64,000 nt of DNA from the NCBI RefSeq assembly GCF_009914755.1, contig NC_060931.1. One strand, 5' to 3'. Positions 14,436 to 49,710 of this stretch are shown here, piece by piece. The position numbers were made by a program, and so were the translations under genes. The DNA comes from the human T2T-CHM13v2.0 reference genome, Homo sapiens. Below the pieces are notes generated by a model. That model had not been told where the DNA came from. It saw only the letters and a list, made by a program, of their open reading frames with translations, and ran no database searches. Positions within the stretch are counted from its first letter, which is position 1. Every line of letters begins with the position of its first letter.

Positions 14436-14827
14436 GTGGACAGTAAATAAGCATGAGAATATCAAAGCACACATTAAATTGCCCAGCATAGGGCAGACTA
14501 GAATACAAATATTCAGATATTCAAGTATTTTTCTTTTAACTTCTCATTGCCCATTCCATCTTAGAGTAAAATGTCAGTAAGGGAGGTGCTTAATGAAGCC
14601 AATGGTCATGTCTTCATTTTTGGATGAGTGCCTATTTTTAGATAGGAATAGGAGAGACACATCTTGAATTGAAAGTTCATCTCTTCCCAACACATTTATC
14701 TTTCTGTAAAAAATGGATAATTCAGGATTTCTTTTGTGATGAAAATGGTGAATAAATGATGTGCCATTCTTTGAACTATGAAATCTTCTGTGTTTTGTTT
14801 CTGGAAACCAGAGTAATGGCAACAACC

Positions 14828-14887
14828 ATATATATATATATATGTGTATATATATATATATATATAATATGCATATATATATATATA
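14828..14887. repeat. (TA)n microsatellite at the Alu tail
   Basis: Imperfect tatatata run. Confidence 0.9.
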
Positions 14888-15183
14888 TTTTTTTTTTTTG
14901 AGATGGAGTTTCGCTCTTGTTGCCCAGGCTGGAGTGCAGTGGCACTGTTTTGGCTCATTGCAACCTCCACCTCCTGGGTTCAAGTGATTCTCCTGCCTCA
15001 GACTCACAAGTAGCTGGGATTACAGGCACATGCCACCATGCCCCCATTAATTTTTGTATTTTTAGTAGAGATGGGGTTTCACCATATTGATTAGGCTGTT
15101 CTCCACCGCCTGACCTCAGGTAATCCACCCACCTTGGCCTCCCAAAGTGCTGGGATTACAGGTGTGAGCCACCGCACCTGGCC
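14888..15183 (-). mobile_element. AluS (Sq/Sp-like) in the spacer of inverted repeat 1
   Basis: ttttgagatggagtttcgctcttgttgcccagg...gagccaccgcacctggcc. Confidence 0.95.
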
Positions 15184-15639
15184 AGTAGAAATAATTAATA
15201 GCTAGAAAGCAGGCTGCCGAGCCTGGCAAGGAACCCAGGTGCAGCCAACATCCGAGGATGTTGGAGTTCAAAGAATGGCACATCATTTATTCACCATTTT
15301 CATCACAAAAGAAATCCTGAATTATCCATTTTTTGTAGAAAGATAAATGTGTTGGGAAGAGATGAACTTTCATTCAAGATGTGTCTCTATCTAAAAATAG
15401 GCATTCATCCAGAAATGAAGACATGACCATTGGCTTCATTAAGCACCTCCCTTACCGACATTTCACTTTAAAATGTAGTGGGCAATGAGAAGTTAAAGAA
15501 AAGAAAAATACTTGAATATCTGAATATTTGTATTCTAGTCTGCCCTATGCTGGGCAATTTAATACGTGCTTTGTTGTAAGCCCCATACCAGGCAGAGCAG
15601 AACTGTTCTGTCACCCTTCCCGAAGCCTCATGACCCACA

Positions 15640-16360
15640 CTATGACTTCCTGGTGTGGTTGGGGGAAGCGATTGAAGCAGCAACTTGGCTCTCCTTCCTC
15701 CTGGAGAGCTACCTTCTTTTTCTGTCTCTTGAGAGTTTATAATTCAGGGAAAGAGTTGACTTTTTTTCTGTTTTTTTGTTTTTGTTTTTCCGTATTTTTG
15801 ATTCAGAAGTCCTAAGCAACCTTAAGGTTTTTCTCTTCTGAAAAGCCACAAGAAGAAAAACAAATCTCTGAGATCAGAGCATCTCTGTTTCTGGCTCTCT
15901 CTTGGCTCTGCCTCCAGTTTCTGCAGAACTAGATCATCTCCATAGCTTCAGGAAGGGCAGTGGCTATGCCCAGGGTAGGTCTCTGCCCCTGGCCAAAGAG
16001 TAACCAGATGCAGTTGCGGGAGCCCTTGGGAGAGGTCGGGACCCGGCAGACACTCAGACCTCACAGCTGCTCAGCAGAGTTGGGGAGCCACCACCCTGCG
16101 AGGGGATCCAGCTTGGCCAGAAGCAGCCTTCACAGTGTGTGGTTTCCTAGAGACCAGGTGCCCTGCCCAGCCAACAGAGGGGAACGCGTGGTTGAGAGAA
16201 CTGGCTTTAAAAAGAATAAAGGACAAAATGATGAGGCTCCAGAATCATGTCACAACCGTGTTTACTGTCTGGCTCCTTTTCTGAAGAGCATTGTCCTGTG
16301 AGCCTGCTCTTCGGCATGGGAATGCAGGCTCAGTGTGATGATGAAACAGGAAATGCGGCT
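15640..16360. promoter_or_regulatory. Candidate enhancer with ETS/RUNX motif cluster
   Basis: ACTTCCTG (15645-15652) next to TGTGGTT (15654-15660); TGTGGTTTCCT 16138-16148; CAGGAAATG at 16347; no recognisable repeats, locally GC/CpG-richer. Confidence 0.3.
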
Positions 16361-16729
16361 TGGGGCAAAAAAAGGAAACTCTACTTGCCACATGTGTCTA
16401 CTACTCCCCACTCAACTTTCTTCCCAGACTTGTACATGCTCATGTGTGGGCACTCCTCCAGGGCAGGGGTCTTACCTTCCTTATCCTGGAAACCTCAAGG
16501 GTGACCAGCAGAAATTATGGAGAAGAAGGCTCTGGGTTGAATAAATGTAAACTAAGTGGATTCATTCTAAGCAGATGTTCCTGGATGTACAGGGGTCAAG
16601 GTCATCTAGAAGAGTGATGTGCTGTAACTTTAGGAAAATGGGACTGGTATTCCTCTACAGTCAGTGGAAAATTGATCTCTATAGGTGAATTAGAACTAAG
16701 GATAACAGCAAAGAAGTAAATGAAAATAT

Positions 16730-46602: not shown

Positions 46603-46619
46603 CCTTGCGTCAGAATCTC
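46603..46619 (-). other. Candidate 17-nt micro-exon
   Basis: cttttactccag|GAGATTCTGACGCAAGG|gtaagt; both splice sites near consensus. Confidence 0.35.
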
Positions 46620-47604
46620 CTGGAGTAAAAGCTATTCCCAAGTTAGAAGCAAGGCACTATTGGAAGCTCTGTTAACCACTTCAGGGCCCTGTGATGAACA
46701 AAAGAGTGAGCTGGATGCATGGCTTCTGGTGCCTGCCACCGGTGCACCCCGTTAAGACTGTTCTATTGTTTTCCCTTTTACTCTGGGCCATGCACAGAGT
46801 CAGTAATAAAATGGAGCATTCTCAGTAAAACACGTCCTACTTCAGGGATGAGCCAAGTGCAGGCTTTCCCTTACTTCTACTGGCCTTGTAGCTCAGGTCT
46901 AGGAGCAACAAGAAACCTGCTTTACATAGCAATAATTAGCAAGAATTGCTGCCACATCTTCACTTTCTTGTCTCATTTGAGTCTTGGATATGAAACCCTT
47001 CCGGGAAAAGTTTCAGAAGATGAGAGGAAATTGCTCCTCTTCTTGCCGCATCCCGCTCCCCAGCCTCTTGCTGACACTCATCCTTCCCTCTTCACTTTGT
47101 GTCTTTATGAAAGACCTTGTTTCTCCATGCAGCCTAACCCTCCTTTCCTGCGCTGGGCATTCTCAAGCTTCAAACTTCTTGGGACTTTGCTCAAACCCTT
47201 TGTTCCTCACCTCCTTTCATTGAGAAGCAACAAAAGTCATTTATCTCAACTTTTCCCTCCCCTGGCTACTCTTACTCTTGCCCTTTCTTTCAGTCATGAT
47301 TCTTGAAATGGTCAGGACATAGCTGCTTTTTCTGCGCCTTCTTCCCCCAGCACTCTCTACCCAGTGGAATCTGCATTGCCCAAGTCACACTGAAGCTCCC
47401 TCCTCCTGAATCCAAAGGAAGGCTTTCCTGTCTCACCTTGCTGGAAGTCCTCACAGCCCCTTCTCCTTCCCACCATTCCCTGTGAGGAGGGTCTGACTCT
47501 GACTTCTGTACTCCTGCTCTCCTAGTGTTCCTCTCACTGTCTAGCCACTCCTTTCTGGTCCGTTCTATGGATCTGAATTCCCCCACAAAGGGTGTTCAAT
47601 CATC

Positions 47605-47835
47605 CACAAACTTCAGAATCACCTGAGTGCTTGTGAAATGTGCAGCTTCCCGCTCACTCCTCAGACTCGATAGATTTGGGGCTAAGCATTATATATACAG
47701 TCAGATGTATATTTGGAAAGAATAAATACTCCTACACAATTTTGGAGGTTTGCCCAGGAACTTGCTTTTTTAAACAAGCACTCCAGTTGATTGTGGTGCT
47801 GGTGACCTGAGGGCCACACTTCGACAAACTCTGCC
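47605..47835. mobile_element. MER5-like hAT-Charlie DNA transposon remnant
   Basis: tcagaatcacctgagtgcttg...tttaaacaagcactccagttgatt...ccacacttcgacaaactctg. Confidence 0.65.
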
Positions 47836-47964
47836 TGAAAACGAATACTCCTCAGGCTTCATCTGTAGCCCTCAGTGCTCCTAAGGGAACCCCCTTTATG
47901 CCCACCGTGACTTCAACTCCCACCTACCCACTGCTGTCTCCCCAGACTTTTTTTCTAACTCAGC

Positions 47965-48180
47965 TCCCTCCCTCTTTCTCTCTCTCTGTGTTTCCTTGTC
48001 TCTGTATATTTCTTTCTCTTTCCCTCTCATTGTTTCTCTCTCTGCTTCTTTCTCTTCTCTCTCTGTTGCTCTCTCTCTCTTTTTCTCTCTCTCTCCTCCC
48101 TTCTCCCTCTCTTTCTGTCTCTCTGTATGTTTCTGTATCTCTCTCTCCTCCATCCTCCCTTCCTTCTCTCTCTCTCTGGG
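47965..48180 (+). repeat. (TC)n low-complexity tract
   Basis: Direct reading. Confidence 0.92.
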
Positions 48181-49710
48181 TTTATAGTTGCAACTTCCTG
48201 CATGATATCTCTAAATGGATGTTACACAAGATACTGCAGCTTAACAACTCAAACTGATCTCATTGCCTCTCAAGCCAAACAACCAAAATAAGTGTAATAA
48301 AAACACATACACATATGCAAACAAAAACCCAGCTCTGTTGCTCTTGTTACTCCTAACTCTTAATGATGCCTTGGCAGTCACTCAATGATCATCACCCTAT
48401 GACCTTATGACCCAAGCCTGGAGTCTGTCATTCTCACAGCCAATCATCTCAAGACCTCTTGATTCTATTTCTGTAACAACTCTTAAATCAGCCTCCTTTG
48501 CTGCTCATTAATGCCTCATTATGACACAGTGCATGTTCACAGTGATCTCTCAATTACTCTCCATGTCTTTGTTCTCACCCCTCAATCTATCCAAGTGGGT
48601 CATTCTGAAGCGAGCCAATGATTGAAAGCCCTTAAGAAGGGCATTTAAATCTATAGAAGAGTCCAGAAAGGGCTGGTTAGACAGTGAGGGGAACTCCGCG
48701 AGAGCAGGAGTGCAGAAGTCACAGAATCAGACCCTCCTCACAGGGAGTGGTGGGAAGGAGGGGGGACCGCGAGTATGTTCAGCAAAGCAAAACAGGAAAG
48801 CCTTTCTTTGGATTCAGCAGAGGGGAGCTTCAGGGTGACTTAGGCAATTCCCCTGGATAGAGAGGGCTGGAGAAGGGCGCACAGAAAAAGCATCTATGTC
48901 CCGACCATTTTTTGTCTCACCCCTTGTTATCAAAGTGGCCTTTCTAGGTGGAAATCTGTTCACATCACACCCTTGCAAAAAGAGAGGCTCCTGCAGGCTG
49001 ATGTCAGAAGCCTCCTTCGGCTTCCAGGGCCCTTAAGGTACAGCCCTTCCTCCAGCCCCACAGTGCACTCCGAACTGTCTGGCTGAAGCTCCCTAGAGCT
49101 TCCTCACATGCTTCTCTGCTTCCTCACATGTCATTCCCTTAAACTGAAATGGTGTTTTGTACAATTTTTATCCAGGCTTTCTCTTCTTACCCAATGATAA
49201 TAATGATAATAATAGGTAGCATTTAATGAATGCTTACTGGATGCAAATCATTATGTGACACACATCTTATTTAACCTTCATAATTGTTGAGTTTAATATT
49301 ATTGTTCTGAATTTACTGAAAGAAAACAGCACAAAAAAGTTAACTAACATGGCTGAGATCAGACAGATAGTAAATGATGGAGCCCTTATTCAAGTTCCAG
49401 TGGATGAACTCTAGAACCCATCCACTTAACCTTGACATTAGATCAGTGACTGCTTCCTCTAGGGAGCTATTCCCTATTGTCTTTCCCACCCCAGCCTAGT
49501 CCTGCCTTTCTCTGTTCCCAAGACACCCTTCCCTAGGCTCTGCCATTGTACTTATCTCACTCTGCTTGACAAATCCACTCTCCTTCAACCAGGCTCTGAT
49601 TTCCTTGGGAGCAGGGAGTATGTCATTGACTTTGATATCTCCAGAACCTAGCACAGCTTATGGAACGTGACAGAGGCTTGATTAAATGCCTATGATTGAA
49701 CAATTAAGAT
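48180..49710 (+). mobile_element. L2 fragments interrupted by the right arm of inverted repeat 3 and a MIR (~49200-49440)
   Basis: atctctaaatggatg, aaatctgttcacatcac, ccttgggagcagggag...ctagcacag. Confidence 0.6.

What the first reader, a model, noticed from the sequence alone, without database searches (positions are those of the whole stretch)
14463..48910. Cluster of locally templated inverted duplications within about 35 kb
Seen: three spaced inverted repeats (arms ~150-310 bp, spacers ~0.5-1 kb) and one tight ~55-bp hairpin. They consist largely of sequence that is not a young transposon, and their by-eye divergences differ (~4%, ~15%, ~21%). Two have one arm bracketed by a degenerate direct repeat with junction microhomology, and one has a 9-bp fold-back at a junction. 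Established: FoSTeS/MMBIR template switching produces short inverted templated insertions with microhomology. Inference: either this locus repeatedly generated such events over evolutionary time, or an intronic dsRNA-forming architecture is being retained in the host pre-mRNA.
Basis: partly seen in the sequence, partly recalled or inferred. Interest (0 to 1): 0.8.

Follow-up and report, generated by a model that had tools for sequence, protein, structure and literature searches.

The report
Cluster of local inverted DNA duplications
In about 40 kb of a gene-poor part of human chromosome 7, five stretches of unique DNA were each copied backwards a short distance away, most likely as scars of faulty DNA replication or break repair; this kind of mutation is known, but it is unusually dense here.

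Summary
Three spaced inverted repeats sit at the stated coordinates: A 14463-14777/15265-15573, B 25392-25542/26263-26412 and C 47306-47623/48598-48910. So does hairpin D (29517-29648). Arm divergences are 3.9%, 12% and 19.6%.

I found two more local duplications. E is an inverted pair at 10363-10481/11781-11899. There is also a direct pair at 18619-19156/19647-19882.

All six query arms match only their own partner in the whole human genome, so these are not transposon repeats.

Junctions carry template-switch or repair marks. A perfect 9-bp fold-back abuts an arm of A. Another straddles an arm end of B and coincides with a cluster of differences between the arms. The right arm of C is bracketed by a 10-nt exact (about 35-nt degenerate) direct repeat.

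Individually these match a described class: repair-mediated proximal duplications, "doublets" and long template-switch mutations.

No support was found for a retained dsRNA function.

Density is 5 spaced pairs in 60 kb, against 1 weaker pair in 230 kb of random control. The control is small and the window was picked for this feature, so a true hotspot is likely but not shown. At least two epochs of events are shown.

The parts
10363..10481 (.).
   Evidence: 119 nt, 84.0% identical to 11781-11899 in inverted orientation. Genome search finds only the two copies.
11781..11899 (.). Inverted pair E, right arm. Weak 16-nt degenerate direct repeat around it (11744-11759 and 11903-11917).
   Evidence: p=0.046 of 1000 random placements. 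The whole 10100-12150 region is otherwise unique in the genome.
13967..14430 (.). 464-nt tract, 99.4% pyrimidine on the + strand, ending 33 nt left of the left arm of A. Candidate triplex-forming, fork-stalling sequence.
   Evidence: TRF; purity. The role is inferred.
14463..14777 (.). Inverted pair A, left arm (probable source copy)
   Evidence: 293 matches, 12 mismatches (11 transitions), 14 gap columns against 15265-15573. Only two copies in the genome.
14828..15196 (.). (AT)31 run (14828-14888) followed by an Alu. Together they fill most of the 487-nt spacer of A.
   Evidence: TRF; Alu cross-matches; sequence.
15245..15264 (.). Perfect 9-bp fold-back (2-nt loop) abutting the inner end of the right arm of A. 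Read as a snap-back templated filler.
   Evidence: one of only 6 such non-low-complexity hairpins in 64 kb. Chance that 2 or more of 6 sit on junctions is 0.0016.
15265..15573 (.). Inverted pair A, right arm (probable inserted copy)
   Evidence: Its flanks are unique in the genome. Which arm is the copy is inferred from the fold-back.
18619..19156 (.). Local direct duplication, copy 1, split by a later Alu (about 18684-18987) that has a 49-nt poly(A) and a 14-nt target-site duplication
   Evidence: 82% identity over 235 aligned nt to 19647-19882. Only two copies in the genome.
19647..19882 (.). Local direct duplication, copy 2 (no Alu)
25392..25542 (.). Inverted pair B, left arm
   Evidence: 132 matches, 18 mismatches and 1 gap column against 26263-26412. 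Only two copies in the genome.
26263..26412 (.). Inverted pair B, right arm
26395..26418 (.). Perfect 9-bp fold-back (6-nt loop) straddling the outer end of the right arm of B. Its left stem covers the patch where 6 of the 18 arm mismatches fall within 11 nt.
   Evidence: Patch clustering is nominal p=0.0013, or 0.19 after correction for 140 positions.
29517..29648 (.). Hairpin D: near-palindrome with about 50-60-nt arms and a 13-32-nt centre
   Evidence: 5 mismatches in 58 aligned positions plus 9 gap columns. Unique in the genome.
47306..47623 (.). Inverted pair C, left arm (source copy)
   Evidence: 250 matches, 61 mismatches and 9 gap columns against 48598-48910.
47964..48177 (.). 214-nt CT-rich tract (91.6% pyrimidine) inside the spacer of C
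   Evidence: TRF
48561..48938 (.). Inverted pair C, right arm (48598-48910, inserted copy) with its bracketing direct repeat (48561-48598 and 48905-48938; exact 10-mer at 48573 and 48915)
   Evidence: p=0.003; p=0.015. The flanks are unique in the genome.

Best explanation
Each pair is the relic of a locally templated duplication. At a stalled replication fork or a double-strand break, a growing 3' end left its template and annealed by a few bases to the opposite strand. That site was a few hundred bases away, or a few bases away for hairpin D. The end copied 120-320 nt there and then returned. This leaves an inverted copy 0.5-1.3 kb from its source, with small fold-back fillers or a short re-copied direct repeat at the junctions. 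The one direct pair arose in the same way on the same strand.

The events are independent of transposons, happened in at least two epochs, and the copies have since drifted as neutral DNA.

Shown:
- the pairs, their uniqueness in the genome and their divergences;
- the junction hairpins and the direct repeat around the right arm of C;
- the absence of transposon marks.

Inferred:
- the two-switch mechanism;
- which arm is the copy (right arm of C with fair support, right arm of A tentatively);
- neutrality.

The confidence given here (0.7) is for this class assignment and neutrality. I put about 55% on the further claim that this stretch has a locally raised propensity for such events. A possible cause is break- or stall-prone sequence: the 464-nt pure pyrimidine tract and the (AT)31 run at A, and the CT tract inside C.
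For: 1. Uniqueness. 6 of 6 queries hit only their own two copies in the 3.1-Gb genome. The search did recover the 78%-identical partner of C, and it gave 3492 candidates for a true interspersed repeat.

2. Size and spacing. Arms are 119-320 nt and sources lie 487-1299 nt away. This falls within the range of the 824 proximal repair-mediated duplications of Pace et al. 2009: mean 162 bp, maximum 619 bp, donor under 5 kb away with a peak near 1.2 kb (PMC2671141, Results read).

3. Junction hairpins. 2 of the 6 perfect hairpins (stem 9 or more, loop 6 or less) in the window sit exactly on arm ends, of A and of B. The chance of 2 or more of 6 doing so is 0.0016. The B hairpin coincides with a patch holding 6 of the 18 arm mismatches.

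4. Direct repeat at C. The right arm of C is bracketed by a direct repeat (p=0.003; p=0.015). The repeat's identity of about 71-75% fits the 80% identity of the arms. This is what a return behind the departure point, or a filled-in staggered break, would leave.

5. No transposon mark. No target-site duplication flanks any whole unit (best 3 nt, p of 0.2 or more).

6. Different ages. Divergences differ: all six chi-square p=1.4e-7; A against B p=0.002.

7. Density. There are 5 genome-unique spaced pairs (130-458 bits) in 60 kb of the window. In 23 random 10-kb stretches there is 1 such pair (71 nt, 66 bits) and none at 100 bits or more.
Against: - No outgroup genome was available. No empty site, no direct dating and no proof of which arm is the copy could be obtained.
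- The flanks of the putative inserted arms are themselves unique, so no paralogous empty site exists.
- The control is small. It has one event in 230 kb, giving a one-sided 95% upper rate of 1.24 per 60 kb. The expected number of equally dense windows genome-wide therefore ranges from 0.4 to 455.
- The window reached me because of this feature.
- Three near-tandem control pairs (L015, L017, L023) were not checked genome-wide.
- Four of the six events (C, E, direct pair, B) are compatible with a single age (p=0.23).
- Gene conversion between arms could distort the ages.
- The direct repeats beside arms of E, A and B are marginal. The one beside A disagrees in identity with its arms.
- Only 2 of 6 units touch a long simple tract (nominal p=0.03).
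- Break repair (SDSA) and replication template switching cannot be told apart from present-day sequence.
Confidence: 0.7

Rival explanations
1. The events are the same kind (ordinary repair- or replication-templated local duplications), but the locus has no special property. The cluster is a chance aggregation, noticed because a reader of many windows picked it out.
For: - The baseline rests on a single control event. At its 95% upper bound, about 455 of about 52,000 windows genome-wide would carry 5 or more.
- The 20 kb flanking the window (L031, L032) hold no genome-unique pair.
Against: - At the point estimate (0.26 per 60 kb), P(5 or more) = 8e-6 and 0.4 such windows are expected genome-wide.
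- At the density extrapolated from Pace et al. (0.035 per 60 kb), P = 4e-10.
- The window's pairs are also longer (119-320 nt) than the single control pair (71 nt).
Confidence: 0.3
2. One complex replication accident, or a short burst, produced the four older duplications (C, E, direct pair, B) at once. A and D were added later.
For: The divergences of C, E, the direct pair and B are statistically homogeneous: 61/311, 19/119, 42/235 and 18/150, chi-square p=0.23.
Against: - B against C alone is borderline different (Fisher p=0.048).
- Each copy lies within 1.3 kb of its own source although the four units are spread over 38 kb. A single multi-switch event would be expected to join distant segments.
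- The samples are too small to resolve ages.
Confidence: 0.1
3. The inverted repeats are kept because they form double-stranded RNA or hairpins in a host transcript (intronic dsRNA, an editing substrate or a small-RNA source).
For: - B, D and C lie in introns 1 and 2 of the predicted lncRNA LOC107986787 (annotation supplied with the finding).
- D folds very stably as RNA (-71.9 kcal/mol, z = -13.4).
- Any transcribed inverted repeat of this size can pair.
Against: - A and E lie upstream of the transcript.
- G.U-compatible transitions show no strand bias.
- Arm divergence reaches 20%.
- Rfam gives 0 matches at gathering score in 64 kb.
- 0 papers mention the lncRNA.
- The lncRNA is only a predicted model.
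Confidence: 0.05
4. The arms are terminal inverted repeats of old low-copy DNA transposons, or pairs of independent insertions of one repeat family.
For: - NCBI's masking covers only 9% of the window, so unmasked DNA can still be old repeat.
- The B arms contain a stretch that I recognise from memory as resembling the MIR core. No tool confirmed this: sensitive blastn against 300 kb found no other copy.
Against: - No third copy of any arm exists in the genome, at a sensitivity that recovers 78%-identical partners.
- No target-site duplication flanks any whole unit.
- The A arms are 96% identical, too alike for relics of an ancient family whose other members have vanished.
- Two independent old repeat copies would not share 88% identity.
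Confidence: 0.03

Closest known systems
[quoted passage not shown]
   Same: - The duplicated segment is unique and present at only one other place in the genome.
- The source lies on the same chromosome within 5 kb, with a peak near 1.2 kb.
- Lengths fit: mean 162 bp, maximum 619 bp.
- Breakpoints carry microhomology, filler or short target-site duplications and no poly(A).
- Events accumulated throughout primate evolution.
   Different: - Pace et al. could detect RDs only where the copy interrupts an annotated transposon. Here the flanks are unique DNA.
- They saw no tendency to cluster. Here 5-6 events lie in 38.5 kb.
- I found no statement on orientation in the parts I read. Here 5 of 6 are inverted.
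- Their Table S1 could not be opened, so I do not know whether any of these events is listed there.
Short-range template-switch mutations (Loytynoja and Goldman 2017, PMC5453318, search listing only; Loytynoja 2022, PMC9435742, passages; Walker et al. 2021, PMC7954356, abstract and headings)
   Same: - A nearby sequence is copied in reverse complement by two template switches.
- Such events create hairpins and clusters of apparent substitutions. Hairpin D and the 9-bp fold-backs at A and B look like this.
- Event loci show atypical secondary structure and AT-rich surroundings.
   Different: - Typical events are tens of bases. The longest reported in the passage I read is 318 bp, so arms of 315-320 nt sit at the extreme.
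- Source and copy are usually adjacent rather than 0.5-1.3 kb apart.
Doublets: short paired duplications (Thomas et al. 2004 PNAS; not held; known to me from the discussion in PMC2671141 and from memory)
   Same: Local pairs of unique sequence, either adjacent or about 1 kb apart, thought to arise by an insertion that copies nearby DNA.
   Different: - Doublets were defined at 25-100 bp as exact matches.
- From memory, they tend to lie on the same strand. Here the arms are longer, diverged and mostly inverted.
DUP-TRP/INV-DUP and other FoSTeS/MMBIR rearrangements (PMC11293582, search listing only; otherwise recalled)
   Same: Iterative template switches give an inverted copy flanked by re-copied direct sequence, as around the right arm of C.
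   Different: Those are kilobase-to-megabase pathogenic rearrangements mediated by pre-existing inverted repeats. Here the scale is about 1000 times smaller and the events are fixed and old.
Long inverted repeats (LIRs) of the human genome (Wang and Leung 2009, not held; Lirex paper PMC5414712, passages)
   Same: Stem-loop-capable repeats with spacers under 2 kb, many unique in sequence and located in introns.
   Different: LIR surveys catalogue structures without origin. They use short minimum stems (30 bp) and do not filter out transposons, so they give no usable baseline for this case.

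Membership tests
Repair-mediated proximal duplication (Pace et al. 2009) | The duplicated segment of at least 50 bp is found at only one other place in the genome | tested here: met
   6 of 6 queries returned only the two local copies. Sensitivity control.
Repair-mediated proximal duplication (Pace et al. 2009) | Donor and acceptor lie on the same chromosome, more than 50 bp and less than 5 kb apart | tested here: met
   Spacers are 487, 720, 974 and 1299 nt for the inverted pairs and about 490 nt for the direct pair. 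D, with a 13-32-nt spacer, falls outside this criterion.
Repair-mediated proximal duplication (Pace et al. 2009) | Breakpoints carry microhomology, filler, deletion or a short target-site duplication, and no poly(A)/poly(T) tail | tested here: inconclusive
   The right arm of C has a significant direct repeat. A has a 9-bp fold-back filler. The others are marginal. No A or T tail was seen at arm ends (contexts). The T run at 48908-48913 is accounted for by the copied end plus the direct repeat. Exact breakpoints need an empty site.
Repair-mediated proximal duplication (Pace et al. 2009) | The acceptor is absent at the orthologous site of an outgroup, or interrupts a transposon | not testable with these tools
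   No other mammalian genome is held. The flanks are unique, so no transposon is interrupted.
Short-range template-switch mutation | The new sequence is the reverse complement of nearby sequence and is explained by two switches | tested here: met
   5 inverted pairs. The anatomy of C fits departure, copy and return 38 nt behind the departure point. The model itself is an inference.
Short-range template-switch mutation | Event length of tens of bases, with source and copy close together | tested here: not met
   Arms are 119-320 nt and 0.5-1.3 kb apart. Only D and the two 9-bp fold-backs are of the usual size. The longest reported event is 318 bp.
DNA transposon with terminal inverted repeats / MITE | Several copies in the genome | tested here: not met
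   No third copy of any arm.
DNA transposon with terminal inverted repeats / MITE | A target-site duplication flanks the whole unit | tested here: not met
   The best exact flanking repeat is 0-3 nt, p of 0.2 or more against 2000 random placements.
Functional hairpin or dsRNA locus (miRNA, editing substrate) | Match to a described RNA family | tested here: not met
   0 Rfam matches at gathering score in the window.
Functional hairpin or dsRNA locus (miRNA, editing substrate) | Pairing preserved by selection (wobble or compensatory bias on the transcribed strand) | tested here: not met
   G.U-compatible transitions on the + versus - strand: A 6:5, B 3:4, C 17:22, E 3:8, D 2:0. This test compares the two arms only; there are no orthologues.
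Functional hairpin or dsRNA locus (miRNA, editing substrate) | Both arms are transcribed in one RNA, with editing or small-RNA evidence | not testable with these tools
   By the supplied annotation, 3 of 5 inverted pairs lie in introns of a predicted lncRNA and 2 of 5 lie outside. No expression data are held.
Segmental duplication / large palindrome | At least 1 kb long and at least 90% identical | tested here: not met
   The longest arm is 320 nt.

The most novel reading that the evidence does not exclude
This 38-kb stretch of 7p14.1 is a long-lived germline hotspot for small-scale template switching. The same locus produced at least six local duplications, five of them inverted, over tens of millions of years. 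It also produced secondary 9-bp fold-back events at their junctions. The hotspot would be seeded by structure-forming DNA: a 464-nt pure pyrimidine tract, an (AT)31 run and CT-rich tracts. It would be a natural, datable record of micro-FoSTeS activity and a source of new hairpins in a lncRNA locus.
Probability: 0.3. Interest if true: 0.55.

Novelty: new member of a known kind. Interest (0 to 1): 0.4.

Why it matters
Small local duplications made by break repair or template switching are a described but little-studied source of new sequence, hairpins and regulatory copies. They have been reported as scattered, not clustered.

If a genome-wide scan confirms this density as an outlier, the locus would show that the propensity for such events can be local and can persist over evolutionary time. 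It would also offer a natural test bed for two questions:
- what seeds the events, for example non-B DNA or replication context;
- whether 300-nt, 96%-identical inverted arms still cause instability or spacer inversion in living people.

If the density proves ordinary, the value is a clean, worked example of the class in unique DNA. The published transposon-based method cannot detect such cases.

Tried and rejected
- Transposon origin was rejected: no third copies and no unit-flanking target-site duplication.
- A paralogous 'empty site' was sought by searching the inserted arms with their flanks and the whole E region. The flanks are unique, so none exists.
- MIR-like relatives of the B arms were sought with sensitive blastn in about 300 kb of held sequence. 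None was found, so the MIR resemblance stays a recollection.
- Rfam scan of the window: 0 matches.
- A 13-mer recombination-hotspot motif, recalled from memory, gave 8 matches against 0.79 in shuffles. Three of the 8 lie in Alus, which shuffles do not model, so I draw nothing from it.
- Direct repeats around single arms: only the right arm of C is convincing. The repeat beside the left arm of A was rejected because its identity (about 77%) does not fit arms that are 96% identical.
- Control candidates that looked local but were not: L034 (458 candidates), L016 (108) and the flank L031 (1886) are interspersed families.
- Thomas et al. 2004 and Wang and Leung 2009 are not held.
- The first pooled blast timed out on satellite sequence. 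It was redone stretch by stretch, dropping L019.

Full report
**What is there.** The repeat finder and a blastn self-comparison of the window show five inverted pairs once Alu-Alu and low-complexity matches are set aside.

| Pair | Left arm | Right arm | Spacer |
|---|---|---|---|
| E | 10363-10481 | 11781-11899 | 1299 nt |
| A | 14463-14777 | 15265-15573 | 487 nt |
| B | 25392-25542 | 26263-26412 | 720 nt |
| D (hairpin) | 29517-29648 overall | | 13-32 nt centre |
| C | 47306-47623 | 48598-48910 | 974 nt |

The same scan shows one local direct pair: 18619-19156, interrupted by an Alu, and 19647-19882.

A sixth inverted match (20901-21178/24331-24590, 69%) is an ordinary interspersed repeat, with 3492 candidates genome-wide.

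Gapped alignments give these differences:

| Pair | Mismatches / aligned positions | Note |
|---|---|---|
| A | 12/305 | 11 transitions, 14 gap columns |
| D | 5/58 | |
| B | 18/150 | |
| E | 19/119 | |
| Direct pair | 42/235 | |
| C | 61/311 | |

It missed E and the direct pair.

**Not transposons.** The window's genome can be searched whole. Each of 6 queries (one arm of A, B, C and E, the D hairpin, and one copy of the direct pair) returned only its own two places. The search recovered the 78%-identical partner of C. So any family member as old as the pair itself should have been seen.

No whole unit is flanked by a target-site duplication: the best is 3 nt, p of 0.2 or more against 2000 random placements. 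The arms of different pairs do not resemble one another.

The uniqueness claim holds down to roughly 78-80% identity. Very old repeat content inside the arms is not excluded. From memory, B contains a MIR-core-like stretch, which could not confirm. Such content does not change the reading, because independent old copies would not be 88% alike.

**Junctions.** Only 6 distinct perfect hairpins (stem 9 or more, loop 6 or less, not low-complexity) exist in the 64 kb. Three of them lie in or on the duplicated units.
- One (15245-15264) ends exactly where the right arm of A begins.
- One (26395-26418) straddles the outer end of the right arm of B.
- One (19061-19079) lies inside copy 1 of the direct pair.

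The chance that 2 or more of 6 fall on one of 24 arm ends is 0.0016.

In B, the left stem of the hairpin covers the 11-nt patch that holds 6 of the 18 differences between the arms. This is nominal p=0.0013, but 0.19 after correcting for position. That pattern is what a short secondary template switch leaves.

The right arm of C is bracketed by an exact 10-mer (48573 and 48915; p=0.003). The 10-mer lies inside a degenerate 38/34-nt direct repeat (48561-48598 and 48905-48938; p=0.015). The repeat's identity is close to that of the arms, and its second copy starts within the last bases of the arm.

I read this as a sequence of three steps: departure from the template, copying of the left arm on the opposite strand, and return about 38 nt behind the point of departure. 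This is an inference. A filled-in staggered break would look the same.

Direct repeats beside the right arm of E (p=0.046), the left arm of A (p=0.046) and the left arm of B (p=0.079) are marginal. The one at A is far less conserved than its arms, so it is probably chance.

**Ages.** Kimura distances and the ages they imply:

| Pair | Kimura distance | Age at 2.2e-9 per site per year (My) | Age at 1e-9 per site per year (My) |
|---|---|---|---|
| A | 0.041 | 9 | 20 |
| D | 0.092 | 21 | 46 |
| B | 0.131 | 30 | 65 |
| E | 0.181 | 41 | 91 |
| C | 0.232 | 53 | 116 |

The rate of 2.2e-9 is the one used by Pace et al.

The six divergences are heterogeneous (p=1.4e-7), and A differs from B (p=0.002). 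But C, E, the direct pair and B are compatible with one age (p=0.23). At least two epochs are shown; more are likely but not proven.

The Alu inside copy 1 of the direct pair has a 49-nt pure poly(A) and a perfect 14-nt target-site duplication, and copy 2 lacks it. So that duplication predates the Alu.

**Is the density unusual?** I fetched 24 random 10-kb stretches and the two 10-kb flanks of the window.

The same pipeline was applied to them and to the window cut into six 10-kb pieces. One satellite stretch (L019) was dropped because its self-comparison timed out. Three other atypical stretches were kept in the denominator: L027 (satellite-like), L015 (70% G+C) and L017.

At 100 bits or more, all 137 control pairs had at least 8 hits in the pooled sequence, meaning Alu, satellite or AT-rich low-complexity sequence. 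The six window pairs had only their own two hits.

At 60 bits or more with at most 3 pool hits, 8 control rows remained, one of them (L031) from a flank of the window. I tested 5 of them genome-wide:
- L034, L016 and the flank L031 are interspersed families.
- L033 is a genome-unique 98-nt palindrome.
- L028 is a genome-unique inverted pair of 71 nt, spacer 1587.

Three near-tandem pairs (L015, L017, L023) were not tested.

For spaced genome-unique pairs, the result is 1 in 230 kb of control against 5 in 60 kb here.
- At that point estimate, P(5 or more) = 8e-6, and 0.4 such windows are expected in the genome.
- At the one-sided 95% upper bound of the control rate, P = 0.009 and 455 windows are expected.
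- Extrapolating the 824 events of Pace et al. to the whole genome gives 0.035 per 60 kb and P = 4e-10, but their count is a deliberate lower bound.

The window reached me because of this feature. So I treat the enrichment as probable (about 55%) but not established.

**What could make the locus prone.**

Two of three such tract clusters touch a duplication unit, although the units cover only 10% of the window (nominal p=0.03). That such tracts stall forks and break is established knowledge recalled from memory. That they acted here is an inference. B, D, E and the direct pair have no such neighbour.

**Function.** I found nothing for the dsRNA reading.
- A, E and the direct pair lie upstream of the only annotated transcript, a predicted lncRNA that no held paper mentions.
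- No arm overlaps its exons or the RefSeq enhancer at 24191-24691.
- Transitions show no strand bias towards wobble pairs.
- Rfam finds nothing.
- D would fold very stably if transcribed, as any fresh palindrome would.

**Comparison with what is known.** Taken singly, the pairs fit the repair-mediated proximal duplications of Pace et al. 2009 (PMC2671141) in uniqueness, distance, length and breakpoint marks. They also fit the 'doublets' that paper cites.

D and the 9-bp fold-backs fit short-range template-switch mutations. The 300-nt arms lie at the upper limit reported for those, which is 318 bp (PMC9435742). Walker et al. 2021 report unusual secondary structure and AT-rich surroundings at switch sites (abstract and headings).

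What differs here is the context and the density. The copies sit in unique DNA, where the published transposon-based method cannot see them. There are five or six events in 38.5 kb, whereas Pace et al. saw no clustering.

**Verdict.** The kind of mutation is known and most likely neutral. The local density is plausibly, but not demonstrably, exceptional.

Noticed in passing
window 13967-14430: A 464-nt tract that is 99.4% pyrimidine on the + strand (5-nt and about 46-nt periodicities). This is long for a pure pyrimidine tract and a candidate triplex-forming sequence.
   Followed up: partly
window 18684-18987: A 5'-truncated Alu with a 49-nt uninterrupted poly(A) and a perfect 14-nt target-site duplication, inserted into copy 1 of the direct duplication. 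It looks young. No subfamily could be assigned with these tools.
   Followed up: no
window 19528-19605: A 40-nt unit repeated twice in tandem at 97% identity, lying between the two copies of the direct duplication. This is another, more recent, local duplication.
   Followed up: no
window 39166-39213: Two perfect 9-bp-stem, 6-nt-loop hairpins lie back to back (39166-39189 and 39190-39213) in AT-rich DNA. A 10-bp-stem hairpin lies at 35067-35087. These are 3 of the 6 such hairpins in the window and are not near any long duplication.
   Followed up: no
window 29649-29700: Hairpin D ends about 15 nt before an Alu that appears to lack its first 40 or so bases (judged from memory of the Alu start). 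The hairpin-forming event may have removed the Alu's 5' end.
   Followed up: no
window 25392-25542 and 26263-26412: The B arms contain a stretch that I recognise from memory as MIR-core-like. No other copy was detectable in about 300 kb of held sequence.
   Followed up: partly
window 9212-9463 and 53852-54100: A direct match of 256 nt at 72% identity, 44 kb apart. It is probably two copies of an old interspersed repeat.
   Followed up: no
window, 8 sites (e.g. 15033, 15129, 21222, 52978): A 13-mer recombination-hotspot-type motif (recalled) occurs 8 times against 0.79 expected in shuffles. Three of the 8 sites are inside Alus, which shuffles do not model.
   Followed up: partly
L031 1258-1486 (10 kb upstream of the window): A near-tandem 96-nt direct repeat that belongs to a high-copy interspersed element with internal repeats (1886 candidates genome-wide). 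It is not a local duplication.
   Followed up: yes
L033 5731-5827 (random control, contig 17): A genome-unique 98-nt near-palindrome (82%) resembling hairpin D. This shows that such hairpins do occur elsewhere, at roughly 1 per 230 kb in my small sample.
   Followed up: partly
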